Shown: piece after piece, positions 1 to 46,437 of the stretch
Layout: each line of letters starts with the position of its first letter
Numbering within the stretch: the first letter of the stretch is position 1
Origin: a virus
Virus genome (UHGV): UHGV-0315882
Reading direction: 5' to 3' (one strand)
Length of the DNA stretch: 56,283 nucleotides
Position numbers and translations under genes: made by a program
The notes under the pieces: generated by a model
What the model was told of the DNA's origin: nothing
Database searches by the model: none
Seen by the model: the letters and a program-made list of their open reading frames with translations, nothing else

Positions 1-15
1 GTTAATAATAGCCAT

Positions 16-116
16 TTTCAGAATCTCCAGTTTAGGACTTTATTTAGTGGGGAAGGTCATTCCCTCCCCGTTGATGTGTAATTTAGCCTATCTAAAAACC
101 AGTGTCAACAAAATTT
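16..116 (-). promoter_or_regulatory. Early-gene cassette type 1: sigma70-like promoter, GC hairpin, RBS
   Basis: Minus strand reads TTGACA (104-109), ~18 bp spacer, TAAATT (80-85), imperfect inverted repeat GGGGAAGG/CCCTCCCC (49-69), GGAGA RBS, then an ATG at 15-13 whose ORF runs off the window. Near-identical copy at 1064-1155. Confidence 0.5.
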
Positions 117-521
117 TTAGAGTTCTGCATAAATTGCATCGCAGATATTACGAAAATCATGACTTGCCAAATTACGTTGCAACCAAGTGGCAAAGAAATC
201 AGCGATTGCAAAATTTGCGTCATACTCGACAGATAACCACACTTTAACAGCAAATCGGAACATTTTCAAATCTAACTCTTTATTCATTACCTTAGATTTG
301 CCTAACATGTCGGCCATTTCATGTTGTGCACCGTCTAGCGTGATACCTGCTGCAACGTCAGTCAATGAGTTTTTTACGCTTTCAACGTCTAAGATAACAC
401 TTTGAATCTTCCCAATAATGTTTTGCAGTGTTTCATCTGGTGCTGATGACGTGATAACATTAATCCGGTTAACGGTCAAACGTGCTTTTAAGATAGATAA
501 CTCACGATTATTAATAGCCAT
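117..521 (-). CDS. hypothetical early protein (134 aa)
   Basis: ORF with GGAGA RBS ~7 nt upstream of ATG, directly downstream of cassette 522-612; no recognisable motif. Confidence 0.55.
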   Translation of the reverse strand: MAINNRELSILKARLTVNRINVITSSAPDETLQNIIGKIQSVILDVESVKNSLTDVAAGITLDGAQHEMADMLGKSKVMNKELDLKMFRFAVKVWLSVEYDANFAIADFFATWLQRNLASHDFRNICDAIYAEL

Positions 522-612
522 TTTTGAATCTCCAATTTAGGATTTAGTGGTAAAGCTCTTTATCTGGGGCTTACTGTACAGACTTATAAGCCCCTTGTAA
601 AGTACTTTATGC
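522..612 (-). promoter_or_regulatory. Early-gene cassette type 2: TTTACA, GGGGCTTA/TAAGCCCC inverted repeat bracketing a TANNNT hexamer, RBS
   Basis: Conserved flanks shared with copies at 1775-1866, 2380-2464, 2759-2847 and 3229-3318; stem 566-573/587-594; minus-strand TTTACA, 17 bp, TACAGT. Confidence 0.5.
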
Positions 613-921
613 TAAATGCAGCTTTTTGCCTTTTACTATGATGTAACTTGATGCGCTATTGCCGCATACATCTTGATAAATTCTACGCAAACGGCCTTTG
701 TAGTATACTTTCCAACTGGTTGGAATCTTTTTCCCGTATCCTGTAGCAGTTTTTTGGAGTCCTGCAACTTGCCAATCCAAAATGTGCTGTTCAGCCCGTA
801 AATCTTCAAAGCACATCACACCGTCTACATAGTGGCGTAGGGTTACGTTTAAGGTGCGACCGTTGTTAGTAGTGTACATTTTTGAATCTCCTAGTTTAAG
901 GACTTTATTTTGACAGTTCAC
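607..921 (-). CDS. hypothetical protein (104 aa)
   Basis: ORF preceded by a degenerate cassette remnant with GGAGA RBS; stop codon embedded in the conserved cassette flank. Confidence 0.5.
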   Translation of the reverse strand: MNCQNKVLKLGDSKMYTTNNGRTLNVTLRHYVDGVMCFEDLRAEQHILDWQVAGLQKTATGYGKKIPTSWKVYYKGRLRRIYQDVCGNSASSYIIVKGKKLHLA

Positions 922-1063
922 TAATTAAGACATCAAAGATTATATCATTATCTGCTACAGTTGCAACACCAGTGATATAATCAATTTCTAAGATAACAAC
1001 AACTTTCGTACATAAACCGTCATCTATATCATTCCAGATAACTTTATCACCTGCACAAAACAT
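905..1063 (-). CDS. small hypothetical protein (52 aa, below the ORF-track threshold)
   Basis: Hand translation MFCAGDKVIWNDIDDGLCTKVVVILEIDYITGVATVADNDIIFDVLISELSK; ATG immediately downstream of a full cassette (1064-1155) with GGAGA RBS. Confidence 0.3.
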   Translation of the reverse strand: MFCAGDKVIWNDIDDGLCTKVVVILEIDYITGVATVADNDIIFDVLISELSK

Positions 1064-1155
1064 TTTAGAATCTCCAGTTTAGGACTTTATTTAGTGGGGA
1101 AGGTCATTCCCTCCCCGTTGATGTGTAATTTAGCCTATCTAAAAATCAGTGTCAA
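1064..1155 (-). promoter_or_regulatory. Early-gene cassette type 1 (second copy)
   Basis: Near-identical to 16-116: TTGACA, hairpin 1096-1116, GGAGA RBS. Confidence 0.5.
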
Positions 1156-1484
1156 TAGTTCTGTTTTCGTTTGCTCAATTCTTGAACAATTACAGCGTAG
1201 TAGTCTTTTAAGTCACTGACATTTAAAGCATTTATCAGAGAATTATAATCATCAACTAACTGGAAATCATCTTTGAAGATGTCACTTATCTGATAGGTTT
1301 TCGCTTTGTATCTGAAGCTCATCTCTAGCCGCTTTATTTGCTCATCGCTTAAACGCTCTAGAAAGCTCATTACAAGGTTATTGCTAACCTGCTGCGTGAT
1401 TGCCTTACTTGCCAGATTATAGGCTTTATATGCCTTATAAAGTGCTATAATGGCTATGATTGCAGTAATGCCAGTTATTAACAT
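1152..1484 (-). CDS. hypothetical membrane protein (110 aa)
   Basis: Strongly hydrophobic N-terminus (LITGITAIIAIIALY); start overlaps the stop of the upstream ORF. Confidence 0.5.
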   Translation of the reverse strand: MLITGITAIIAIIALYKAYKAYNLASKAITQQVSNNLVMSFLERLSDEQIKRLEMSFRYKAKTYQISDIFKDDFQLVDDYNSLINALNVSDLKDYYAVIVQELSKRKQNY

Positions 1485-1774
1485 GGTGTTTCCTCTTTAC
1501 GTGATACCTTGCCACTTACAGATATCTCATAAGACTCTAATAAATCACTTTTAGACTTTACAGGACTTTTAAAAGTATCATCATAAATATTTACTTGCAA
1601 TACAGGTTTTTTATACTCCCTGCAACTATTCCATAAACAAATCACTACACGACGGCCTTTTATTTTGCCGTGTAACCATTCCATAACATCATGACTATTC
1701 CTTGATGTTTCAATGAAATCAATTTTGTTGAGTAATTTGCTCAGATTCTCACGAACATGATTTGATAATTTCAT
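1478..1774 (-). CDS. hypothetical protein (98 aa)
   Basis: ORF with GGAGA RBS, directly downstream of cassette 1775-1866. Confidence 0.5.
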   Translation of the reverse strand: MKLSNHVRENLSKLLNKIDFIETSRNSHDVMEWLHGKIKGRRVVICLWNSCREYKKPVLQVNIYDDTFKSPVKSKSDLLESYEISVSGKVSRKEETPC

Positions 1775-1866
1775 TTTAGAATCTCCTAGTTTAAGGGATT
1801 TATTTGATAAATCTCTTTATCTGGGGCTATCATATCCGCTTGTTAGCCCCGTGTAAAGAAATCTAT
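1775..1866 (-). promoter_or_regulatory. Early-gene cassette type 2 variant
   Basis: Stem GGGGCTA/TAGCCCC (1823-1829/1844-1850); minus-strand TTTACA, 17 bp, TATGAT; GGAGA RBS. Confidence 0.5.
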
Positions 1867-2379
1867 TTAGTTCTTAAAGATATTCATCACTGAATCTTTT
1901 AATGCTTCCAAGCGTTCTGATACTTCAGATTCTGCGTCTGCGTTGTTCACCTCTTCTTTTAGTCTATCCTCTAAATCATCGCCGTCACGATAGCACCAAT
2001 CGAAAGCATAACCAAGATAAAAACTCTCTAAAACCGTGCTACCGTTTGCATCCACAACTTTCGCGGCAAGGTTGTATTCTGAAGCCTCTAAATCTCTTTC
2101 TAGTTCTTTCTGTAAGCTGGTGTAAGCCTCTTTTGATGGGTTTTCCCGGCCTTGTTTTGCATAGTCACTTGAAAGCTGTTTAAGGCTGTAATGTAAAGGG
2201 ATTGCATATTTAAAATCATTACGCTGACAGTTGGGGTTTTTAATAGTCACGCCGCCTTGATGGTCATCTGTAAATTCCCAATTATCAAGATTATGGCTTG
2301 CTTCAAAGCAATTAACTGCTTCGTAAATGATGGAAAATTTTTCTTTTACAACTTCAAAGGTAGCGTCTACAGTTTTCAT
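1867..2379 (-). CDS. hypothetical acidic protein (170 aa)
   Basis: ORF with cassette-borne RBS; no recognisable motif. Confidence 0.55.
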   Translation of the reverse strand: MKTVDATFEVVKEKFSIIYEAVNCFEASHNLDNWEFTDDHQGGVTIKNPNCQRNDFKYAIPLHYSLKQLSSDYAKQGRENPSKEAYTSLQKELERDLEASEYNLAAKVVDANGSTVLESFYLGYAFDWCYRDGDDLEDRLKEEVNNADAESEVSERLEALKDSVMNIFKN

Positions 2380-2464
2380 TTTTGAATCTCCAGTTTAGGA
2401 TTTAGTGGTAAAGCTCTTTATCTGGGGCTTAAGATATCAACTTTTAAGCCCCTTGTAAAGTACT
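2380..2464 (-). promoter_or_regulatory. Early-gene cassette type 2
   Basis: Stem GGGGCTTAA/TTAAGCCCC (2424-2432/2444-2452); TTTACA, 17 bp, TATCTT; GGAGA RBS. Confidence 0.5.
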
Positions 2465-2758
2465 TTATTTGTTAATTTTCAGCTTTGCATAACTTCTCAT
2501 TGTACGAATGGTGGATGTTAATGCTACGCGTCTAATGTATGCCTTTTTCGTGTATACAGTTGTCTTCCCGATAGTGTTTACACATGTAAAAAGGTTTATC
2601 GGTGAATTTTTTAACTTCAACTGTTTATCAGCCTTCACGCCCCACCTTACAGCAGATTGTTTTCCGTTGTCAACCACTTTTCCGCATAACTTTTTAGCCA
2701 TAACGCGAGCGTCATCACGAGTTTTTGCAGCAATTACAACGTTTTTGATAATAGCCAT
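2465..2758 (-). CDS. hypothetical basic protein (97 aa)
   Basis: ORF after cassette 2759-2847; N-terminus MAII resembles that of ORF 117-521 (MAIN). Confidence 0.5.
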   Translation of the reverse strand: MAIIKNVVIAAKTRDDARVMAKKLCGKVVDNGKQSAVRWGVKADKQLKLKNSPINLFTCVNTIGKTTVYTKKAYIRRVALTSTIRTMRSYAKLKINK

Positions 2759-2847
2759 TTTTTAGTTCTCCAATTTAGGATTTAGTGGTAAAGCTCTTTA
2801 TCTGGGGCTTACTTTATCGAACTATAAGCCCCTTGTAAAGTACTTTA
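2759..2847 (-). promoter_or_regulatory. Early-gene cassette type 2
   Basis: Stem 2804-2811/2825-2832; loop identical to the copy at 3229-3318. Confidence 0.5.
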
Positions 2848-3228
2848 TCAGTTAATTTTGAAAATTGTCACATATCCGTCACTGCCGATTATTTGAGATA
2901 CTCCAGCTTTTTCCACTGAATAGCCCATATTTTCAAGATGATAAACAGCATCATCATAACCATATGCGCCACCCTGATAACGTCTCTTATCGCATCTTAT
3001 CAGGTTTTTACCACGTCCTGCAAGTGCATTCAGTACAGCTTTTTCACTTGATAGCATACCATCTAACATGGTTGCCGTGTAATGGTTGATTCTATTCCCA
3101 TTTACATCATACTTAAAATTGAATGCGTGAACAACGATAATGTTACCTTTAAAATTTTCATCAAGTGACTTCTCCAGTGCGTTGCGAAAGTTGTCTTTGT
3201 TGATGAATTTAGGTGCACGATATGCCAT
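2848..3228 (-). CDS. hypothetical protein (126 aa)
   Basis: ORF with cassette-borne RBS. Confidence 0.55.
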   Translation of the reverse strand: MAYRAPKFINKDNFRNALEKSLDENFKGNIIVVHAFNFKYDVNGNRINHYTATMLDGMLSSEKAVLNALAGRGKNLIRCDKRRYQGGAYGYDDAVYHLENMGYSVEKAGVSQIIGSDGYVTIFKIN

Positions 3229-3318
3229 TTTTGAATCTCCTAGTTTAAGGGTTATTTAGTAAAGCTCTTTATCTGGGGCTTACTTTATCGAACTATAAGC
3301 CCCTTGTAAAGTACTTTA
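3229..3318 (-). promoter_or_regulatory. Early-gene cassette type 2
   Basis: Stem 3275-3282/3296-3303; loop identical to the copy at 2759-2847. Confidence 0.5.
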
Positions 3319-3525
3319 TTAGATATCGTAGTAATAAACTGCTGTCTGTCTTATGTGCTTTCTTGTATTTCTTGTAAGGTAGCAATTAGAATTAATAGCC
3401 GTTTCTACATAGTTGCAGTAGTCAGCTTCTGATATTCTGGACCATGCGCCACATACTTGCATGTAAAAACGTTTTACCTTTGTGTTAACGTTAGTTGTAA
3501 CCATCAATTCACGACTATAAAGCAT
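3319..3525 (-). CDS. hypothetical protein (68 aa)
   Basis: ORF with GGAGA RBS after cassette 3526-3606. Confidence 0.45.
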   Translation of the reverse strand: MLYSRELMVTTNVNTKVKRFYMQVCGAWSRISEADYCNYVETAINSNCYLTRNTRKHIRQTAVYYYDI

Positions 3526-3606
3526 TTTCGATTCTCCAGTTTAGGAAGTGGGCTTGCTTGCCCGTCTGATGCAAATATTAGATAACCATACTCAAAGAGT
3601 CAATAG
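3526..3606 (-). promoter_or_regulatory. Early-gene cassette variant (TTGACT, 17 bp, TAATAT, short GGGC/GCCC hairpin, RBS)
   Basis: Same architecture as type 1 with a different, weaker hairpin (3550-3563). Confidence 0.4.
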
Positions 3607-3780
3607 GAATTTTAAAAATATTTTTGGCAAAAATGTAATGAAACGGGTGCGCGCGACTACCACAAAACAGAACTACAATCAAGAATTATTTTTCAATCCG
3701 CTACAAATTTTTCTGTTGACTTTTATTTCCAGATGTGGTAGCCTTGTGAGAAATGGCGACATCCCCACCTGCACCCACCT

Positions 3781-3963
3781 ACCTGCACAATTCTAAAATG
3801 ATTTTTCTTGCCCGACCTGATTTTTCTCTGCACGTTTTGAAAATGAAAAAGCTCTTTGGAGATTACCTGCACAGTTTGAAAATGAATTTTCTCTTTGGAG
3901 TTCAAAATTTTCTCTACAGATTTCTCTATAGAAATATACCTGCACAATTCTGAAATGAAAAAG
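3781..3963. repeat. Four direct copies of a ~22-26 bp motif in noncoding DNA
   Basis: Copies at 3781-3802, 3827-3851, 3865-3886, 3938-3963 (ACCTGCACA[A/G]TT[C/T]T[A/G]AAATGA); CTCTTTGGAG also occurs twice. Confidence 0.6.
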
Positions 3964-4031
3964 CCCTCCTTACCTGAAAAATTTACCAGATAAGAAAGGC
4001 TTAGTCTATTGTGAATATCCTACGAAGTTTC

Positions 4032-4817
4032 TTAGTTCTTTGCGTCTAAGAAGGTAAGCTCTGGTGAAGAGAAAACCGTCTCGATATCCTCATCAGTTCT
4101 TGCATAGATGTAAGCATCTGCATCACTGCCAAATGTTACTGCAATCCTGTGATTGCTCTTCGACAGGTGGGTAACTAGAGCGTTACTTAGAGACATCTTT
4201 TCAACCGGAGGGTTACTTTGATGTATCTTGCCTTTTCTTCGTCTGAAGAGGGTAACTACATCATTAGTGAACACTACTACACCAGCAAAGTATTCTGGTT
4301 CACAGTAGTTCTTCCAACCTGAGCGTAACTTGTGGTACATCTCTCCTTCATAGACATACAGATACACATCTACACTCTTCATCACCTGATTAATGATGAC
4401 TGTGACGGCTTGAGAGTCTAGTCCACCGATACCTGCACCAATCATAGGTAACCCAACTTTCTTCAACTGATTGACTTCACAGTATCTGTTAAGTTGTTTC
4501 AAAGATGATTCTAAAGCACTGTATCGGGCATCTTTACCAGTCTTAAGCTGAGTGTAAAGGTTAGCTATACGGCCTTGTTCTAAACGTGCTACAGAGAAAT
4601 TGCCTAGTAAATTTTCACAGGGTTTGTGACCTATGCCACCTGCATACAGATAAACTTCTGTATCGGTCTCATATGCTTTTGGGTAAAGTTTAGAAATCTT
4701 GTCAGCGATACCTGCACCCATTAAGTTCATACAGTTGCAACCGTGACCAATGATATCAAACTTACCTTTATCAAATGCGGAGAAGATATCCCCATTGATG
4801 ATTTTTACAATACCCAT
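4032..4817 (-). CDS. TARG1/OARD1-like macrodomain protein with unknown C-terminal domain (261 aa)
   Basis: N-terminal ~150 aa carry GDIF...HGCNCMNLMGAGIA...LPMIGAGIGGLD, matching TARG1-type macrodomain hallmarks recalled from memory; GGGAGAGA RBS. Confidence 0.6.
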   Translation of the reverse strand: MGIVKIINGDIFSAFDKGKFDIIGHGCNCMNLMGAGIADKISKLYPKAYETDTEVYLYAGGIGHKPCENLLGNFSVARLEQGRIANLYTQLKTGKDARYSALESSLKQLNRYCEVNQLKKVGLPMIGAGIGGLDSQAVTVIINQVMKSVDVYLYVYEGEMYHKLRSGWKNYCEPEYFAGVVVFTNDVVTLFRRRKGKIHQSNPPVEKMSLSNALVTHLSKSNHRIAVTFGSDADAYIYARTDEDIETVFSSPELTFLDAKN

Positions 4818-5018
4818 TTAGCATCTCTCCCAAGATTCTTTATCTTCTGAAGGTTTTACACGTTGTCCTTCGTGGTCTACCCAGATACATCCACAACCTT
4901 CACAGATTACTGGCATTGCATAGCCAGCTTTAAAGTCATCTTCAGTGATAAGACCTTTTAAGTCACCTGTATCACGTCCGAACATTTCGATAGCACAGTC
5001 TTTGCAGAAGTCAGCCAT
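4818..5018 (-). CDS. small Cys-rich protein, putative zinc-binding (66 aa)
   Basis: CKDC...CEGCGC; start placed at the internal ATG (MADF) with AGAGG RBS because the track start is a GTG. Confidence 0.4.
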   Translation of the reverse strand: MADFCKDCAIEMFGRDTGDLKGLITEDDFKAGYAMPVICEGCGCIWVDHEGQRVKPSEDKESWERC

Positions 5019-5244
5019 GAATAATTGCCTCTTGAATGATGATGCCTTTACCACAACGACTTTTAAAATCTTCTAATGGTTCAGAGAAGAAGTCACGGAA
5101 ATGGTTACTGCACTCACGTTTTATCACCTTCTTGTAAGTTAACACATCTTCTTCTGCAAACGGGATGACTTCATGTCTCCCTTTGAATACTGCTGAACGT
5201 ACAATCTTGCGGGTCTTTTTATCTCTGGCTAGTATTACTTTCAT
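5011..5244 (-). CDS. hypothetical protein (77 aa)
   Basis: ORF in tight same-strand array. Confidence 0.45.
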   Translation of the reverse strand: MKVILARDKKTRKIVRSAVFKGRHEVIPFAEEDVLTYKKVIKRECSNHFRDFFSEPLEDFKSRCGKGIIIQEAIIHG

Positions 5245-5551
5245 AGTTTACCTTCTCAGTTAGCTCATACAAGTCAACATGCTCAATGCTATCAATGTTG
5301 ATACCAATCTTTTTGAAGCGTTCTATCACTTCGTTGTCAGTCATCCATATCAGACACCAATGATTATGGATGGATTCTTCAAGAAGGTCAACACAGTCTT
5401 TAAAAGTTTTTGTATCACTTCTTGTTCCGACTACTGCGATTGTCCCATACAACCACTTACCATTGCCATAAGATACTTGTGCTACGCCAACTTCTTTATC
5501 TTTCTCGTAGTAAACGGCTACAAAGTCTCTTCCATTAATCTGCATAGTCAC
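5219..5551 (-). CDS. hypothetical protein (110 aa)
   Basis: ORF in tight same-strand array. Confidence 0.5.
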   Translation of the reverse strand: MTMQINGRDFVAVYYEKDKEVGVAQVSYGNGKWLYGTIAVVGTRSDTKTFKDCVDLLEESIHNHWCLIWMTDNEVIERFKKIGINIDSIEHVDLYELTEKVNYESNTSQR

Positions 5552-5817
5552 TTCCTCGTTTTAAGAACTGCTAAGATTTCTTTAGAGTCTGGTAAGAACC
5601 ATGTGTAGTGATTCTCTTTGATTTCTGGATGAGTGTCAACCTTTATTTTGCACTCTTTACCAACATGCTTAAGCTGTGCTGTGACACCTTGCATAAAGAT
5701 ATGACACATCACGTTATCCATAATGGTTGGTGAGAAATCAACCCGCATATAAGTTTCTTTTGGTCGTGGTAGCAGTAAATACCCTTCTACATAGAAAGTA
5801 TCTTCATTCTCTGTCAT
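5548..5817 (-). CDS. hypothetical protein (89 aa)
   Basis: ATGA start/stop overlap with the upstream gene. Confidence 0.5.
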   Translation of the reverse strand: MTENEDTFYVEGYLLLPRPKETYMRVDFSPTIMDNVMCHIFMQGVTAQLKHVGKECKIKVDTHPEIKENHYTWFLPDSKEILAVLKTRK

Positions 5818-6083
5818 TGCTGTTTGTTTCCTAATAAAATCATATCAATAAGGTTATTAGCTTTGATTGTGCACTGGTAAAAACCATCACGATAAAACTC
5901 AAGGGCTGCTGCCACATCACTACCAGTATTACCTTTGACAGTGAATCTTGACTCTTCTTGAGTGTACTTGTCACTCTCACTTACTTGGGAGTTTTTGAAT
6001 GTACTGTTCACTTTGTTCGTTGAACACCCTGACATAATTATCAGTAACACAAACATTATAAAACTCTGGCTTAGTCTTTTCAT
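5814..6083 (-). CDS. putative outer-membrane lipoprotein, o-spanin-like (89 aa)
   Basis: Signal peptide with lipobox-like IMSGC; start lies within the 3' end of the upstream membrane/coiled-coil gene, as in overlapping Rz/Rz1 pairs. Confidence 0.45.
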   Translation of the reverse strand: MKRLSQSFIMFVLLIIMSGCSTNKVNSTFKNSQVSESDKYTQEESRFTVKGNTGSDVAAALEFYRDGFYQCTIKANNLIDMILLGNKQQ

Positions 6084-9283: not shown

Positions 9284-9362
9284 CTTATTACTCTCTCTTG
9301 TTAGTTAATAAATCATTTTGTGATGCTATTTTAAGGGGCTTTGAAGCCCCTTGTCAAACACT

Positions 9363-43859: not shown

Positions 43860-46391
43860 TTAAGCAGTTCTTACCCAAGCCATTAACTTGTAGAACTGGT
43901 TAGTAACACTAAATGCTGAACCAGAACCTGTGCCACCAGTATTACCACTAACTGTATGAGTGTGAGCACCAATAGCTATTGCGTGAGCATGTCCCCCACC
44001 GAGGTCAGTAGAACCACTTACAGAGTGTGTGTGAGCACCATCACCTTCCGTCCACCCAACATGTGTTTGAGCAGAGTTTGATGAAGCTACACGACCATTT
44101 GGTACGTTAGCGTTATCACCTTGTGAGATTCTATGTGCGTGGTATCCAGCAGAGTTAGTAGAACCACTTACAGCGTGTGAGTGAGCACCATTGACAACAG
44201 TTTCTTTTACACCATAATCAAAAGATGAAGTGGTAGCAGAGAAACTATGGGTGTGTGACGGTAAGTTACCAACAGATAACACCACAGAGTCTGAACCACC
44301 TGTTGTAGCAACATCTGAACCATCTGCTGCTGCAATCCTGATAGTCCTACCAACACCATTGTTAAGGTACGTCCAAGTTAACCCAGGAAGTGCTGTATTA
44401 GGGTCAACATTACTGTTAAACCACGTTACAATACCTACTGGATAGATTTTGTTAAGGTCTGTAGAGTCACTGATTGCTGTTGCAATCTTCTGGTCAGTCT
44501 CAGCTTTAGTGTATGCACCAATATCTGAAGGGGTTGGCTTCAAAATACTCGTGTAATAGTGAGCAATTGTCCCAGCAACATAGCCAGATGGAGAGCTGTC
44601 AGAGGTCTCTGGTGTCTCAAACAACTGGACTGTTGCATTATCTGATGCCTGAACCCTAGCTGTCGTAGCGTTTTGATAGCCACCAACATTGCAATAAATA
44701 TCATAATTATCACCAGACGTATTAACATAACCAATTTGGTCTACAACACCATTTGGTGAGTTTTTCCATGCAACAACATTTAACCCTTTTGGATTACCAT
44801 TCCCTGTTCTGAGAACAATCTCTGTCTTACAGGCTTGGTCTGTAGCACCATAGTTGAAACCAGACCCACCAAATAGCTCAATTACGGCTGTTGCTGTCCC
44901 TTGTGGCATGGTGACTGTAGCAATCTTAGCCCATTTACCACCAGCATTCTGGTTAAAGCCAGTACTTCTTACTCTCAGGTATCTATTATCGGCAGAAGTT
45001 TTATTATAATACCTGTCGTCAATGTTACTCCAATCAGAAGGTTTAACTTGACCATTGATTCTAACAGTTTTATTTAGAAAAAAGTCATCTTGCATAAAAA
45101 GAGTGGTCCCAGTTTTATCATTGTGGATAATGAGTTTAGATGGGTTTTCTCTCTCGCCATTCCCGATGAACCACCTTCTCACATTATCAGCGTTATAACC
45201 AGCAAAGTATAGTGCATTATCCTGAACAGTGTTTCTTAGCTGTAACGATAGGTCATCTTGGGTAATAACTTGTGTAGACCTGAAAATGTTCATGTTACTG
45301 AGTTTAGCAAGATTACTCAAAGTTCCTGCCGGAATGTATCTAGAATCAATGTTACTCCAATCAGAAGGTTTAACTTGACCATTGATTCTAACAGTTTTGC
45401 TCATGGCAATAGTGTTACCTAGTGAGACTTGTGTTTTTGTTAGATAGTTATAGATTTTTAAAATGTTCTCATCACCGTCATTACCAATGTACCACTTATA
45501 ATTCCCATCTGACTTTCTTGCTCGGATATATAAAGAGGGAGCAGTGTCCACATTTTGCAGAGTGATGGCTTCAGCATTCTTCTTAGCAACAAAATTAGAG
45601 AAAGTGTTAGTACCAGTAAAAGTGTTATTACCAGCTAACTGCGCAAATCTCTGATTAGCTGCTGTCTGGGTAAAATACCTAGCATCTAAGTTAGCAAAAC
45701 TTGAAGGCTGAACTTGGCCAGCAATTTGAAGAGTTCTGTTGACTGTCACCAAATTCTCTAAAATAGCAATTGAAACGTCAGACTTTACATTCTTCAATAC
45801 AAGATTATTTGTACCCCTATTATCATTACCTAGATACCATCTGTTAGTACCATCTGCATCTTGACCACGAAGATAGAGTGGAGCACCTTGAGTGATATTT
45901 TTGATAATGAGTGCTTCATTGTCAGAGAGGATAGCTTGAGTACCTCTAAAGGTGTTATTTACAGCAAGTCTTGCATATCTTGCATCATTCTCTTTATTAG
46001 TTCTCATACCAAGCTCATTAGGACTTGGCTTATTCAGAGTATGATAAACGGTTGCCGACCTTGAAGCATCTGCAATAGTCAGTTTAAGGCCATTTGCGTT
46101 AATTTTAAAAGTCTTTAAAACATCCCCAATATTAATCTCAGAAGAGCCTGTTGGGTTAAATACTACCTTACCACCATAAAGTAACTTAACAATCCCTAAG
46201 TCACCTGTCATAGTGCTACCAGCAATCTGAACAAATCTCTCAAGTTTAAAAGATGCTAAGAAGTCTTGATAGGTCATTCGACGGTCTTCATCACCTAGCA
46301 TTTCAGGTCTCTTTTTAACCCTGACATGAAGAAGGTCATCTGAACGGATTGTATCGATTGAGTTTAATTCACTCAACTTGTAATCTGCCAT
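43860..46391 (-). CDS. Tail fiber protein with His-rich C-terminal tip (843 aa)
   Basis: C-terminal HxH repeats (HTHSF, AHSHAV, HAHRI, AHTHSV, HAHAI, AHTHTV) as in metal-binding fiber tips; internal ~50 bp DNA repeat (45021-45071 and 45346-45397). Confidence 0.75.
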   Translation of the reverse strand: MADYKLSELNSIDTIRSDDLLHVRVKKRPEMLGDEDRRMTYQDFLASFKLERFVQIAGSTMTGDLGIVKLLYGGKVVFNPTGSSEINIGDVLKTFKINANGLKLTIADASRSATVYHTLNKPSPNELGMRTNKENDARYARLAVNNTFRGTQAILSDNEALIIKNITQGAPLYLRGQDADGTNRWYLGNDNRGTNNLVLKNVKSDVSIAILENLVTVNRTLQIAGQVQPSSFANLDARYFTQTAANQRFAQLAGNNTFTGTNTFSNFVAKKNAEAITLQNVDTAPSLYIRARKSDGNYKWYIGNDGDENILKIYNYLTKTQVSLGNTIAMSKTVRINGQVKPSDWSNIDSRYIPAGTLSNLAKLSNMNIFRSTQVITQDDLSLQLRNTVQDNALYFAGYNADNVRRWFIGNGERENPSKLIIHNDKTGTTLFMQDDFFLNKTVRINGQVKPSDWSNIDDRYYNKTSADNRYLRVRSTGFNQNAGGKWAKIATVTMPQGTATAVIELFGGSGFNYGATDQACKTEIVLRTGNGNPKGLNVVAWKNSPNGVVDQIGYVNTSGDNYDIYCNVGGYQNATTARVQASDNATVQLFETPETSDSSPSGYVAGTIAHYYTSILKPTPSDIGAYTKAETDQKIATAISDSTDLNKIYPVGIVTWFNSNVDPNTALPGLTWTYLNNGVGRTIRIAAADGSDVATTGGSDSVVLSVGNLPSHTHSFSATTSSFDYGVKETVVNGAHSHAVSGSTNSAGYHAHRISQGDNANVPNGRVASSNSAQTHVGWTEGDGAHTHSVSGSTDLGGGHAHAIAIGAHTHTVSGNTGGTGSGSAFSVTNQFYKLMAWVRTA

Positions 46392-46437
46392 TATAAATTT
46401 TCCTCTTAAAAGGGGCTATCAAGCCCCTGTAAAGAAA

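What the first reader, a model, noticed from the sequence alone, without database searches (positions are those of the whole stretch)
1..3610. Array of early-gene cassettes: promoter, inverted repeat and RBS repeated before each short ORF
At least nine short minus-strand ORFs are each preceded by a ~90 bp conserved module. In type 2 copies a -35-like TTTACA/TTGACA is followed by GGGGCTT(A), a variable stretch that always carries a TANNNT hexamer 17-18 bp from the -35, then AAGCCCC, so the inverted repeat brackets the -10 element. Type 1 copies place TTGACA, 18 bp, TAAATT upstream of the hairpin. The design recalls the promoter/stem-loop cassettes (PeSLs) described in T4-type phages. The inverted repeat could be an operator, a 3' stabiliser of upstream transcripts, or a recombination site.
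Basis: seen in the sequence. Interest (0 to 1): 0.6.

Follow-up and report, generated by a model that had tools for sequence, protein, structure and literature searches.

The report
Promoter-plus-hairpin gene cassettes in a Felix O1-like phage
A run of small early genes of unknown function in a Felix O1-type phage is punctuated by conserved ~90-bp modules, each holding a host-type promoter, a conserved RNA hairpin and a ribosome-binding site, and whole genes have been gained and lost between related phages by recombination between these modules, as with the "PeSL" cassettes of T4-like phages.

Summary
The window is a Felixounavirus, and 1-3610 is the start of a variable early region read on the minus strand. 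Ten ORF starts are preceded by five type-2 modules, two type-1 modules, one degenerate type-1 lead promoter, one ribosome-binding-site-only module and one overlapping start.

In 55 distinct type-2 copies from four Ounavirinae genera, CTTTACA is invariant. TANNNT is kept in all 55 through 14 different hexamers, at a 17-bp spacing in 48, and 33 carry an extended-10 TGn.

The inverted repeat is the inner part of a two-helix hairpin that spans the whole promoter. 97% of pair cells are paired, compensatory changes occur, and there are 87 G·U pairs against 1 A·C on the gene-sense strand. It is therefore an RNA element of read-through transcripts, not an operator. It has no U-tract.

Type-1 hairpins start about +3/+4 of their own transcript, like a 5' stabiliser.

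Eight of nine gene indels among relatives join inside modules, with 35-104 nt of shared sequence at six of them.

Verdict: a PeSL-like cassette system, apparently not described for this subfamily in the papers I could search. The hairpin's role (processing or stabilising, possibly by RNase III, versus attenuation) is inferred. No transcripts were mapped.

The parts
3961..4002 (-). Canonical intrinsic terminator (17-bp stem followed by TTTCATTT) that ends the preceding operon. It corresponds to t13 of Felix O1 and marks the upstream border of the variable region.
   Evidence: Terminator scan; listed as t13 in the Felix O1 paper (PMC3185647).
3526..3610 (-). Lead module: TTGACT (3603-3598), 17 bp, TAATAT (3580-3575), a weak GGGC/GCCC hairpin, CTAAACTGGAGA, then ATG at 3525. 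It is a degenerate type-1 module.
   Evidence: In relatives the same position holds a full type-1 hairpin (L001:3433 and L005:5196).
3229..3318 (-). Type-2 module A. Promoter 3310-3282 (TTTACA-17-TAAAGT). Inner hairpin arms lie within 3275-3303 and the full two-helix hairpin spans 3260-3318. SD TTAAACTAGGAGA is at 3236-3248.
2759..2847 (-). Type-2 module B. Promoter 2839-2811 (TTTACA-17-TAAAGT). Inner hairpin 2804-2832, full hairpin 2789-2847. The core is identical to that of module A.
2380..2464 (-). Type-2 module C. Promoter 2459-2431 (TTTACA-17-TATCTT, with TGn before the -10). Inner hairpin 2424-2452, full hairpin 2409-2467.
   Evidence: (I2).
1775..1866 (-). Type-2 module D. Promoter 1857-1829 (TTTACA-17-TATGAT). 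Inner hairpin GGGGCTA/TAGCCCC at 1823-1850. The outer helix is 13 bp without interruption, and the full hairpin spans 1807-1866.
   Evidence: dG -24.8 kcal/mol, z -7.4.
1064..1155 (-). Type-1 module E. Promoter 1155-1127 (TTGACA-17-TAAATT); the TGA stop of the upstream ORF lies inside the -35 hexamer. Hairpin GGGGAGGG-AATGA-CCTTCCCC at 1096-1116, then SD and ATG at 1063.
   Evidence: (D4).
880..904 (-). Module holding only the ribosome-binding site (AAAGTCCTTAAACTAGGAGATTCAAAA), with no promoter or hairpin.
   Evidence: (D6). It is one partner of the recombination junction that removes the 52-aa ORF in five relatives.
522..606 (-). Type-2 module G. Promoter 601-573 (TTTACA-17-TACAGT). Inner hairpin 566-594, full hairpin 551-609.
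16..116 (-). Type-1 module H. Promoter 108-80 (TTGACA-17-TAAATT). Hairpin 49-69, SD at 24-35, and the ATG of the next ORF at 15-13; that ORF runs off the window.
   Evidence: (D4).
117..3525 (-). Nine small ORFs of the variable region: 3319-3525 (68 aa), 2848-3228 (126), 2465-2758 (97), 1867-2379 (170), 1478-1774 (98), 1152-1484 (110), 905-1063 (52), 607-879 (90) and 117-521 (134).
   Evidence: None matches a Pfam family. Eight match PHROG families of unknown function and the 52-aa ORF matches none. All are annotated as hypothetical in relatives.

Best explanation
Positions 1-3610 are the first part of the hypervariable early-gene block of a Felix O1-like myovirus (Ounavirinae). The block is built from autonomous cassettes, and each intergenic module has three parts.

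1. A host sigma-70 promoter. In type 2 it is TTTACA, 17 bp, TANNNT, often with an extended-10 TGn. In type 1 it is TTGACA-like, 17 bp, TAAATT.

2. A hairpin that acts as RNA on the gene-sense strand.
- In type 2, an outer helix of 11-13 bp pairs the transcribed copy of the -35 region with roughly +2 to +13. Then comes a 2x2 or 3x3 internal loop, then an inner GC-rich helix of 7-10 bp whose loop holds the -10.
- The predicted start of transcription falls at the 3' side of the internal loop. The hairpin can therefore form only in transcripts that read through from upstream.
- My preferred inference is that it marks, processes and/or protects the 3' end of the upstream message. It does this as a barrier to 3' exonucleases and possibly as an RNase III site like those between T7 early genes. 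I do not think it acts as a classical terminator.
- In type 1, the hairpin starts 10 nt after the -10, about +3/+4 of its own transcript, where a 5'-terminal stem-loop would stabilise the message.

3. A shared 5' leader and Shine-Dalgarno sequence (CCTAAACTGGAGATTC-N4-5-ATG).

Because the modules are long near-identical direct repeats, homologous recombination between them deletes, inserts and reshuffles whole genes without breaking expression.

Shown here: sequence conservation, covariation, strand asymmetry and breakpoint positions. Inferred: promoter activity, the start site, and what the hairpin does to RNA.
For: Identity and context. The window is 90-94% identical to Felixounavirus genomes. 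The modules occur about 5 times per genome in 289 phage records, all but a few stray records from Ounavirinae. In IMG/VR, every locus with several hits lies on an 84-93 kb contig or a shorter fragment of one, and all but one of those modules have both the hairpin and TANNNT. Thirty single hits elsewhere do not pass both tests (only four of them, one repeated sequence, form even a 6-bp stem, and none of those four has TANNNT) and look like chance.

Promoter, type 2. In 55 distinct modules from 4 genera:
- CTTTACA is invariant.
- The T, A and final T of the -10 are invariant, while the three middle positions give 14 different hexamers.
- The spacer is 17 bp in 48, 18 in 5 and 16 in 2.
- TGn precedes the -10 in 33 of 55.

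Promoter, type 1. In 63 distinct modules the spacer is 17 bp in 62, although several unrelated spacer sequences are used. The -10 is TAAATT in 54.

RT-PCR in Felix O1 found ORFs 16, 20, 21 and 22 of this block maximally expressed at 5 min (PMC3185647).

Hairpin.
- The fold is -21 to -25 kcal/mol, with z from -3.4 to -7.4.
- 17 pairs are 97.0% paired, against 31-59% when the partner is slid by 1-3 columns. The covariation score is 0.125 against 0.075 in shuffles, reached by 0 of 500 shuffles.
- Pair 9-61 is GC in 39 and UA in 10. Pair 22-48 is GC in 49 and UA in 6. Pair 24-46 is CG in 27, UG in 27 and UA in 1.
- There are 87 G·U and 1 A·C on the sense strand.
- The outer-helix covariation breaks the local palindromes but keeps the long-range pairing.
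- No U-tract follows the hairpin (AGAUAAAGAG). The consensus terminator scan finds none at any module, whereas the phage's real terminators have short loops (4-8 nt) and U-tracts.
- Type-1 hairpins have 410 Watson-Crick and 46 G·U pairs with varied stems. They start 10 nt after the -10 in 61 of 63.

Shuffling.
- Gene order in 18 loci shows cassettes that are variably present and bounded by modules. In Kolesnikvirus the same gene families appear in a different order.
- Eight of nine indel events against 11 relatives have both junctions inside module sequence. In the six deletions, adjacent BLAST alignments overlap by 23-104 nt in the relative, and by 35-104 nt in five of them.

T7 comparison. 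T7 early RNase III sites fold as a lower stem, an internal loop and an upper stem. In the T7 record, promoters are annotated in the same intergenic regions.
Against: - No transcript 5' or 3' ends have been mapped for any Ounavirinae phage in the literature I could search, so promoter use and RNA fate are inferred.
- Type-2 hexamers match the consensus at only 9-10 of 12 positions.
- The covariation rests on few independent events, because the modules are recombining paralogues. The shuffle control does not correct for relatedness.
- The inner-helix loop of 9-14 nt is much larger than in T7 RNase III sites, and the outer helix is made mainly of A-U and G·U pairs.
- In RB49, a PeSL stem-loop reduced downstream reporter expression about as much as a strong terminator (PMC2839356). 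An attenuator role therefore cannot be excluded here.
- One indel (L015, 7636|8004 in sense coordinates) has one end inside a gene.
- Any viable indel must lie in intergenic DNA, which here is almost entirely module. Junction position alone is therefore weaker evidence than the junction homology.
Confidence: 0.7

Rival explanations
1. Classical PeSL reading. The type-2 hairpin is a transcription terminator or attenuator. It stops or damps RNA polymerase arriving from the upstream cassette, and the embedded promoter restarts transcription, so that each cassette is transcriptionally insulated.
For: - In RB49, a PeSL stem-loop placed before lacZ lowered expression about as much as the rrnB T1 terminator. 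PeSL stem-loops commonly lie between -35 and -10 or overlap the -10 (PMC2839356).
- Stems with the same GGGGCT/AGCCCC sequence form terminator-like hairpins elsewhere in the window, at 9357 and 46433.
- Overlap of terminators and promoters is widespread in bacteria (bioRxiv 10.64898/2026.08.19.745784).
Against: - No U-tract follows the hairpin; the next bases are AGAUAAAGAG.
- The loop is 9-14 nt.
- The consensus terminator scan finds none at any module.
- The phage's evident terminators look quite different, with short loops (4-8 nt) and T-runs.
- The covarying outer helix pairs sequence upstream of the inner hairpin with sequence 5-16 nt downstream of it. It can form only after the polymerase has read through, so read-through RNA must be common enough to be under selection.
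Confidence: 0.2
2. DNA-level operator. The inverted repeat that brackets the -10 binds a dimeric phage or host regulator, which shuts off all the cassettes together.
For: The half-sites are about 21 bp apart centre to centre and overlap the core promoter. The sequence outside the stems is highly conserved.
Against: - Stem sequences change while pairing is kept: GGGGCTTA, GGGGCTA, GGGGTTATC, GGTGTTTATACT.
- There are 87 G·U against 1 A·C on the sense strand. A double-stranded palindrome read by a dimer should show no strand asymmetry.
- Type-3 modules use an unrelated stem, CCCCTTGA/TCGAGGGG, in the same geometry.
Confidence: 0.04
3. Single-stranded-DNA recombination site. The hairpin folds in one DNA strand and is the target of a site-specific or structure-specific recombinase, as with integron attC sites. 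This would drive cassette exchange.
For: - The strand-specific tolerance of G·T is also compatible with a folded sense-strand DNA.
- Cassettes are exchanged at module boundaries.
- The PeSL authors speculated that GGGG...CCCC stems might be recognised by a protein.
Against: - Junction homology extends over 35-104 nt and includes junctions in the ribosome-binding-site part, which has no hairpin. An example is 8441|8591 in sense coordinates. This is what plain homologous recombination predicts.
- No integrase or recombinase is annotated in this block in any of the relatives' records fetched, and none of the nine ORFs of the block (plus the adjacent macro-domain gene) tested against Pfam and PHROGs matches one. 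The other genes of the window were not screened.
Confidence: 0.03
4. Non-functional duplication scars. The repeats are only leftovers of tandem gene duplications and have no regulatory role.
For: Modules A and B share an identical core, and some gene families occur twice (family 0).
Against: - The modules flank unrelated ORFs.
- They persist across four genera whose coding sequences have diverged.
- They keep exactly the promoter-critical bases while other positions vary.
- They show compensatory changes.
Confidence: 0.03

Closest known systems
PeSLs (promoter-early stem-loops) of T4-like phages RB49/phi1, T4/PST and KVP40/nt-1 (Arbiol et al. 2010, PMC2839356; Comeau et al. 2014, PMC4122927)
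   Same: - A composite intergenic motif: the upstream stop codon in AT-rich sequence, a sigma-70-like -35/-10, a GGGG...CCCC stem-loop that overlaps or lies next to the -10, then SD and ATG.
- Dense arrays in a hypervariable block of small genes without assigned function.
- Indels between close relatives have their junctions inside the motifs.
   Different: - The host phages belong to a different lineage (Ounavirinae, 84-93 kb genomes), and I saw no sign of sequence homology to the T4-type motifs (not formally tested).
- The type-2 structure is a two-helix hairpin enclosing the whole core promoter, with covariation and sense-strand G·U bias. That is RNA-level evidence not reported for PeSLs.
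- There is no U-tract.
- Promoter and terminator activity and mini-circle formation, which were shown for PeSLs, are untested here.
RNase III processing sites between phage T7 early genes (R0.3, R0.5, R1, R1.1, R1.3)
   Same: - Located between successive genes of an early, same-strand gene array transcribed by the host polymerase.
- The architecture is a lower stem, an internal loop and an upper stem, about 20 bp in all (one search compared).
- In the T7 record, promoters are annotated in the same intergenic regions.
   Different: - The apical loop is 9-14 nt here, against 3-5 nt in T7.
- The internal loop is small and symmetric (2x2 or 3x3).
- The lower stem is made mainly of A-U and G·U pairs.
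- Cleavage has not been tested, so this is a resemblance in form only.
Promoter-coupled terminators in bacteria (Fletcher et al., bioRxiv 10.64898/2026.08.19.745784)
   Same: One stretch of DNA encodes both an RNA hairpin for the upstream transcription unit and promoter elements for the downstream one.
   Different: - In that system the stem-loop DNA serves as the -35, the T-tract as the spacer, and the -10 lies downstream.
- Here the -35 lies in the outer helix and the -10 in the loop, and there is no T-tract.
- The rIIA-rIIB intergenic site at 9320-9357 is closer to that design.
5'-terminal stem-loop mRNA stabilisers (the ompA 5' UTR and the T7 phi10 leader; from my own knowledge of Emory, Bouvet and Belasco 1992)
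   Same: The type-1 hairpin begins about 3-4 nt from the predicted 5' end of its own transcript. This meets the known requirement for very few unpaired 5' nucleotides.
   Different: The start site is predicted, not mapped. No half-life data exist.

Membership tests
PeSL-type regulatory cassette | Sigma-70-like -35 and -10 hexamers at 16-18 bp spacing | tested here: met
   Type 2: CTTTACA invariant, TANNNT in 55 of 55, spacer 17 bp in 48 of 55, TGn in 33 of 55. Type 1: spacer 17 bp in 62 of 63. All eight window promoters are listed by the consensus scan.
PeSL-type regulatory cassette | A stable stem-loop, often GGGG...CCCC, next to or overlapping the promoter elements | tested here: met
   Folds of -21 to -25 kcal/mol with z from -3.4 to -7.4. 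97% of pair cells are paired and covariation is present.
PeSL-type regulatory cassette | The upstream stop codon lies in AT-rich sequence at the 5' edge, and SD plus start codon lie at the 3' edge | tested here: met
   The stop codon lies in or just before ATAAAGTAC (or AAATAG in module D), and inside TTGACA at 1152-1154. The SD GGAG lies 8-9 nt before the ATG.
PeSL-type regulatory cassette | Clustered in a hyperplastic region, flanking small genes of unknown function | tested here: met
   All nine ORFs lack a known function. The block holds roughly 10-20 genes in different relatives. No module occurs elsewhere in the 56-kb window.
PeSL-type regulatory cassette | Indels and replacements between related genomes have junctions within the motifs | tested here: met
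   Eight of nine events. Alignments overlap at the junction by 23-104 nt in the six deletions, and by 35-104 nt in five of them. Gene-order table.
PeSL-type regulatory cassette | Demonstrated promoter activity and terminator/attenuator activity in reporters | not testable with these tools
   Needs reporter fusions or transcript mapping. The only data are crude RT-PCR timings for Felix O1 ORFs.
PeSL-type regulatory cassette | Formation of excised mini-circles by recombination between flanking motifs | not testable with these tools
   Needs inverse PCR on infected cells or virions.
Intrinsic (Rho-independent) terminator | A GC-rich stem with a short loop, followed at once by a U-tract | tested here: not met
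   No module is reported by the consensus terminator scan. The tail is AGATAAAGAG and the loop is 9-14 nt.
RNase III processing site (T7 early type) | About two turns of double-stranded RNA, interrupted by an internal loop where cleavage occurs | tested here: met
   Outer helix 11-13 bp, a 2x2 or 3x3 internal loop, and an inner helix of 7-10 bp. T7 sites fold in a similar way. This is a structural criterion only.
RNase III processing site (T7 early type) | Cleavage by RNase III in vitro, or rnc-dependent RNA ends in vivo | not testable with these tools
Operator (palindromic protein-binding site on duplex DNA) | Sequence-specific, strand-symmetric conservation of the two half-sites | tested here: not met
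   The arms covary, and 87 G·U pairs stand against 1 A·C on the sense strand.

The most novel reading that the evidence does not exclude
A 'promoter inside a hairpin' that acts as a natural expression insulator. In read-through RNA the two-helix hairpin is cut by RNase III on the 3' side of its internal loop, within 1-3 nt of the point where the embedded promoter starts transcription. Messages that begin at a gene's own promoter and messages processed from upstream read-through would then carry the same 5' leader and ribosome-binding context. The upstream message would be left with a protective 3' hairpin. Each shuffled cassette would be expressed alike wherever it lands. The neighbouring macro-domain gene (4032-4817) is annotated in one relative as a possible RNase III inhibitor. 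If it is YmdB-like (an E. coli regulator of RNase III, from my own knowledge), it could modulate this step.
Probability: 0.2. Interest if true: 0.7.

Novelty: new member of a known kind. Interest (0 to 1): 0.45.

Why it matters
It would extend PeSL-style modular gene shuffling from T4-like phages to an unrelated and widely used group. Felix O1-like phages serve in Salmonella typing, biocontrol and therapy. This supports the view that conserved regulatory linkers are a general route by which lytic phages trade accessory genes.

It would also answer a question the Felix O1 genome paper left open. That paper listed the repeats without giving them a function, and it asked how transcription proceeds and is timed across this region.

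The strand-specific covariation supplies RNA-level evidence that the stem-loops are selected as structures. Such evidence was lacking for PeSLs.

In practical terms:
- The modules mark safe insertion and deletion points for engineering these phages.
- They form a natural series of compact promoter-leader units.
- Annotation pipelines currently mislabel them. Type 1 is annotated as a promoter followed by a "terminator", and type 2 is not annotated at all.

Tried and rejected
- Rfam at a permissive E-value threshold over 1-6000 gave only sub-threshold chance hits: mir-980 at 24.7 bits against a gathering score of 47, and a snoRNA. No known RNA family matches.
- No tRNA genes are present in the window.
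- The consensus terminator scan found nothing at the modules.
- The operator reading was rejected on strand asymmetry and covariation.
- Local mini-palindromes (TAAAGTACTTTA and TAAAGAGCTTTA) as independent sites were rejected. The G-to-T and C-to-A variants break the local palindromes but preserve the long-range pairing.
- MAFFT misaligned the innermost 2-3 pairs of the short-stem class (GGGGCTA/TAGCCCC). I therefore limited the formal pair count to 17 pairs common to all classes, and checked the full stems with a separate anchored script.
- Two literature searches with loose term settings returned irrelevant papers.
- The wV8 genome paper says nothing about repeats or promoters, although the GenBank record annotates DR_1 to DR_9 here.
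- The phiEa21-4 genome paper (PMC2663227) is not held, so I could not check whether it describes these motifs.
- The PhageMaP study of the Felixounavirus Bas63 does not discuss them.
- Single IMG/VR hits outside Ounavirinae-sized contigs do not have both the hairpin and the -10, so I treated them as chance matches.
- A RegB-like nuclease acting on the conserved GGAG was considered. It was dropped because the 'RegB' wording in relatives' annotation refers only to a T4 gene neighbourhood.

Full report
**What the window is.** Positions 1-4000 match 251 phage records. The best matches are Felixounavirus genomes at 90-94% identity over the full length: PHB11, vB_EcoM_Shy, NBEco004, and Felix O1 itself at 89.8%. 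Genes in 1-33,400 run on the minus strand. In relatives, the region after the macro-domain 'phosphatase' gene (window 4032-4817; Pfam Macro) is a block of small hypothetical genes. It ends at a convergent terminator before the next operon. The window holds only the first part of that block.

**Checking the observation.** Read on the minus strand, the region starts with a strong canonical terminator at 4002-3961. About 350 nt of non-coding DNA follow, then a lead promoter TTGACT-17-TAATAT (3603-3575), then ten ORF starts.
- Five starts follow a type-2 module. It reads: stop codon, ATAAAGTAC (AAATAGATTT in module D), TTTACA, one base, GGGGCT(T)A, 11-14 nt, (T)AAGCCCC, AGATAAAGAGCTTTAC, about 20 nt, CTAAAYTGGAGA or TTAAACTAGGAGA, 6-8 nt, ATG. 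The -35 hexamers start at 3310, 2839, 2459, 1857 and 601.
- Two starts follow a type-1 module: TTGACA-17-TAAATT, 10 nt, GGGGAGGG-AATGA-CCTTCCCC, ACTAAATAAAGTCCTAAACTGGAGATTC. The -35 hexamers are at 1155 and 108, and the two copies are 98% identical over 93 nt.
- One start (879) has only the 25-nt ribosome-binding-site part.
- One start (1484) overlaps the preceding ORF.
- All these patterns are far above chance and occur nowhere else in the 56-kb window.
The type-1 spacer is 17 bp, not 18. TTGACA does not occur as a type-2 -35 in this window. Not every ORF has a full module.

**Earlier notice in the literature.** The Felix O1 genome paper listed a 57-bp and a 39-bp 'direct repeat' between genes 15/16, 19/20 and 18/19, 20/21. 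These are the type-2 and type-1 cores. The paper gave them no function, did not count them among its promoters, and stated that how transcription proceeds and is timed here is unknown (PMC3185647). The wV8 GenBank record annotates them as DR_1 to DR_9, but its paper does not mention them. The ASO1A record labels type-1 modules as a promoter followed by a 'terminator' and leaves type 2 unannotated. I found no paper that links these repeats to PeSLs or maps transcripts in this subfamily. The phiEa21-4 paper could not be read.

**Distribution.** A 101-nt type-2 query finds 1,439 places in 289 phage records. A type-1 query finds 1,164 places in 251 records. All but a few stray records are Ounavirinae: Felixounavirus, Suspvirus, Mooglevirus and Kolesnikvirus (type 2 only in the last). 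An IMG/VR pattern scan gave multi-copy hits only on 84-93 kb contigs or shorter fragments of such contigs. All but one of those modules have both the hairpin and TANNNT. Single hits elsewhere did not pass both tests (four of them, one repeated sequence, have a 6-bp stem but no TANNNT) and look like chance.

**Evidence for promoters.** I collected modules from the window and 17 loci of relatives, all oriented in the gene sense.
- Among 55 distinct type-2 sequences, CTTTACA is invariant.
- The first two bases and the last base of the -10 hexamer are invariant, while the three middle bases vary through 14 hexamers (TAAGAT, TATCTT, TAGTAT, TAAAGT, TACAGT and others).
- The spacer is 17 bp in 48, 18 in 5 and 16 in 2, and 33 of 55 have TGn just upstream of the -10.
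- Conservation of exactly the positions that sigma-70 reads, with free variation elsewhere, is hard to explain in any other way.
- Among 63 distinct type-1 sequences the spacer is 17 bp in 62, even though at least six unrelated spacer sequences are used. The -35 is TTGACA, TTGCAA, TTGACG, TAGACA, TTGATT or TTGACT (one copy, GCAACA, departs further), and the -10 is TAAATT in 54.
- Gel-based RT-PCR in Felix O1 placed ORFs 16, 20, 21 and 22 of this block in the 5-min class.
- Promoter activity itself has not been measured.

**What the inverted repeat is.** Folding 76-nt segments shows that the GGGGCTTA/TAAGCCCC repeat is the inner helix of a longer hairpin. An outer helix of 11-13 bp (UAAAGU.CUUUA with UAAAG.GCUUUA) is followed by an internal loop (CAN/AGA), then an inner helix of 7-9 bp (up to 10 in relatives) with an 11-14 nt loop. 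The energy is -21 to -25 kcal/mol and z is -3.4 to -7.4.
- The RNA copy of the -35 hexamer lies in the 5' arm of the outer helix.
- The -10 lies in the apical loop and the top of the 3' arm.
- The predicted start, 7-8 nt after the -10 at the A/G following CCCC, lies at the 3' side of the internal loop.
- On alignment A1, 17 pairs common to all classes are 97.0% paired, against 31-59% when the partner is slid by 1-3 columns.
- The covariation score is 0.125 against 0.075 ± 0.006 in shuffles, and none of 500 shuffles reaches it.
- Compensatory changes occur in both helices. Outer pair 9-61 is G-C in 39 and U-A in 10. Inner pair 22-48 is G-C in 49 and U-A in 6. Inner pair 24-46 runs C-G (27), U·G (27), U-A (1).
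- The outer-helix change destroys the local palindromes AAAG..CTTT on each side while keeping the long-range pairing.
- The non-Watson-Crick cells are 87 G·U against 1 A·C on the gene-sense strand. The anchored script on full inner stems gave 323 Watson-Crick, 32 G·U and no A·C.
- The selected structure is therefore single-stranded and on the sense strand, which is most simply RNA.
- Since the embedded promoter starts at the 3' edge of the structure, only transcripts arriving from upstream can form it.
- A caveat applies. The modules are recombining paralogues, so the number of independent substitutions is small, and the shuffle control does not correct for relatedness.

**What the hairpin probably does.** It is not a canonical terminator. 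The tail is AGAUAAAGAG, the loop is large, and the consensus terminator scan reports none at any module. The phage's evident terminators have short loops (4-8 nt) and T-runs. The outer helix needs sequence 5-16 nt downstream of the inner hairpin. It can form only after read-through, so read-through RNA must be frequent enough to be under selection.
- I therefore favour a post-transcriptional role on the upstream message: a 3' protective structure, and possibly an RNase III site.
- T7 early RNase III sites fold as a lower stem, an internal loop and an upper stem of similar total length. In the T7 record, promoters are annotated in the same intergenic regions.
- The differences are the larger apical loop, the small symmetric internal loop and the outer stem made mainly of A-U and G·U pairs. 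Cleavage is untested.
- The attenuator reading remains a live rival, because an RB49 PeSL stem-loop behaved as a terminator in a reporter.
- Type-1 hairpins also covary (410 Watson-Crick, 46 G·U, at least ten stem variants). They begin 10 nt after the -10 in 61 of 63 copies, about +3/+4 of their own transcript. That is the position where a 5'-terminal stem-loop is known to stabilise E. coli mRNAs (my own knowledge).
- A third class, seen only in relatives to the left of the window, places an unrelated stem (CCCCTTGA/TCGAGGGG) around a -10 after TTGACA. The geometry thus recurs with different sequences.

**Cassette shuffling.** Gene families were clustered by BLASTP and laid out in order for 18 loci.
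- Within Felixounavirus, the families corresponding to window ORFs 3319-3525, 2848-3228, 2465-2758, 1867-2379, 1478-1774 and 905-1063 are each absent from one or more relatives. Several further families are present only in some.
- Kolesnikvirus phages carry some of the same families in a different order, again preceded by type-2 modules.
- BLASTN of the window region against 11 Felixounavirus loci gave nine distinguishable events.
- In eight events both junctions lie in module sequence. In the six deletions the two flanking alignments overlap in the relative: by 90-104 nt where two type-2 modules recombined, by 35 nt where the ribosome-binding-site parts of module E and module F recombined, and by about 23 nt at the junction that removes the 68-aa ORF.
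- For example, the hybrid module in ASO1A has the upstream flank of window module A and the downstream leader of module B. These two modules share an identical core.
- One event has an end inside a gene.
- This is the signature of homologous recombination between dispersed direct repeats, as proposed for PeSLs.
- Mordin even carries two type-2 modules in tandem, fused through the repeated CTTTAC.

**Comparison with known systems.** Every sequence-level and comparative criterion used to define PeSLs is met. The experimental criteria (reporter activity, mini-circles) cannot be tested here.
- The host lineage differs, and I saw no sign of sequence homology to the T4-type motifs (not formally tested). 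This is an independent instance of the same design.
- I class it as a new member of a known kind.
- What is added here is evidence that the stem-loop is selected as a sense-strand RNA structure wrapping the whole core promoter.

**Score.** Interest is moderate (0.45). The phenomenon is real, conserved across the subfamily, and apparently not described in the papers I could search. Its kind, however, has been known since 2010 and the repeats themselves were listed in 2010. The most novel reading not excluded is RNase III processing that makes processed and primary transcripts share one 5' end, acting as a natural insulator. I give it a probability of about 0.2.

Noticed in passing
window 3780-3958 (minus strand): Four copies of a 22-nt motif, TCATTTNNNAANTGTGCAGGTA. 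Three are exact to the pattern and one has 3 mismatches. Their starts are spaced 73, 39 and 45 nt apart. They lie in the ~430-nt non-coding gap (about 350 nt up to the -35) between the terminator at 3961-4002 and the lead promoter, and the full motif occurs nowhere else in the window. Some relatives annotate a ~50-aa ORF across them. They could be iterons or binding sites for a regulator.
   Followed up: partly
window 9320-9357 (minus strand), between the 788-aa and 369-aa ORFs (rIIA and rIIB in relatives): TTGACA, then the hairpin AGGGGCT-TCAA-AGCCCCT filling the spacer, then TAAAAT 18 bp after the -35. This is a promoter with a terminator-like hairpin between -35 and -10, using the same stem sequence as the type-2 modules. 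It matches the commonest PeSL subclass and the 'promoter-coupled terminator' layout.
   Followed up: partly
window 46405-46433 (minus strand): TTTACA followed by GGGGCT-TGAT-AGCCCC and TTTTAAG, just upstream of the SD of the ORF that starts at 46391. It is a terminator-like hairpin with the type-2 stem sequence but no convincing -10.
   Followed up: no
window 4032-4817 (minus strand): The 261-aa protein has a Macro domain (Pfam E = 2e-7; PHROG 'phosphatase'). In phage Meda the homologue is annotated 'possible phosphatase, RNase III inhibitor, RNA processing'. That wording may derive from E. coli YmdB, a macro-domain regulator of RNase III (my own knowledge). The gene sits directly upstream of the array of RNase III-like hairpins. 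The link is speculative.
   Followed up: partly
window 1150-1155 and the 5' edges of modules at 3318, 2847, 2464, 606: [quoted passage not shown] The TGA of the 110-aa ORF lies inside the type-1 -35 TTGACA. In modules C and G the TAA is the one in ATAAAGTAC, which is the 5' arm of the outer helix. In A and B the stop lies immediately 5' of that arm. A terminating ribosome would therefore sit on the base of the hairpin.
   Followed up: no
L006 7494-7600 (Citrobacter phage Mordin): Two type-2 modules lie in direct tandem, joined through the repeated CTTTAC motif. This shows that the sequence after the hairpin (GAGCTTTAC) and the sequence before it (GTACTTTAC) can recombine with each other.
   Followed up: no
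L001 8653, L002 9583, L003 9433, L004 7323, L006 12856 (relatives, to the left of the window start): A third module class: TTGACA, 2-3 nt, CCCCTTGA, a 15-nt loop containing TAACTT, then TCGAGGGG. A different stem sequence brackets a -10 in the same geometry as type 2.
   Followed up: partly
L007 8596, 11092, 11495 (Erwinia phage Ea_Tu10): Kolesnikvirus has a further repeated element: TTGCAA or TTTACA, then GGGGTTA-cggttatgagacta-TAACCCC, then GTCGAAACAAACAACCC. I could not place a clear TANNNT at 16-18 bp from the -35.
   Followed up: no
GU169904.1 'Staphylococcus phage SA1': A record named as a Staphylococcus phage carries Felix O1-type modules at 86% identity. The record probably contains Felix O1-like sequence that does not belong to a staphylococcal phage.
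   Followed up: no
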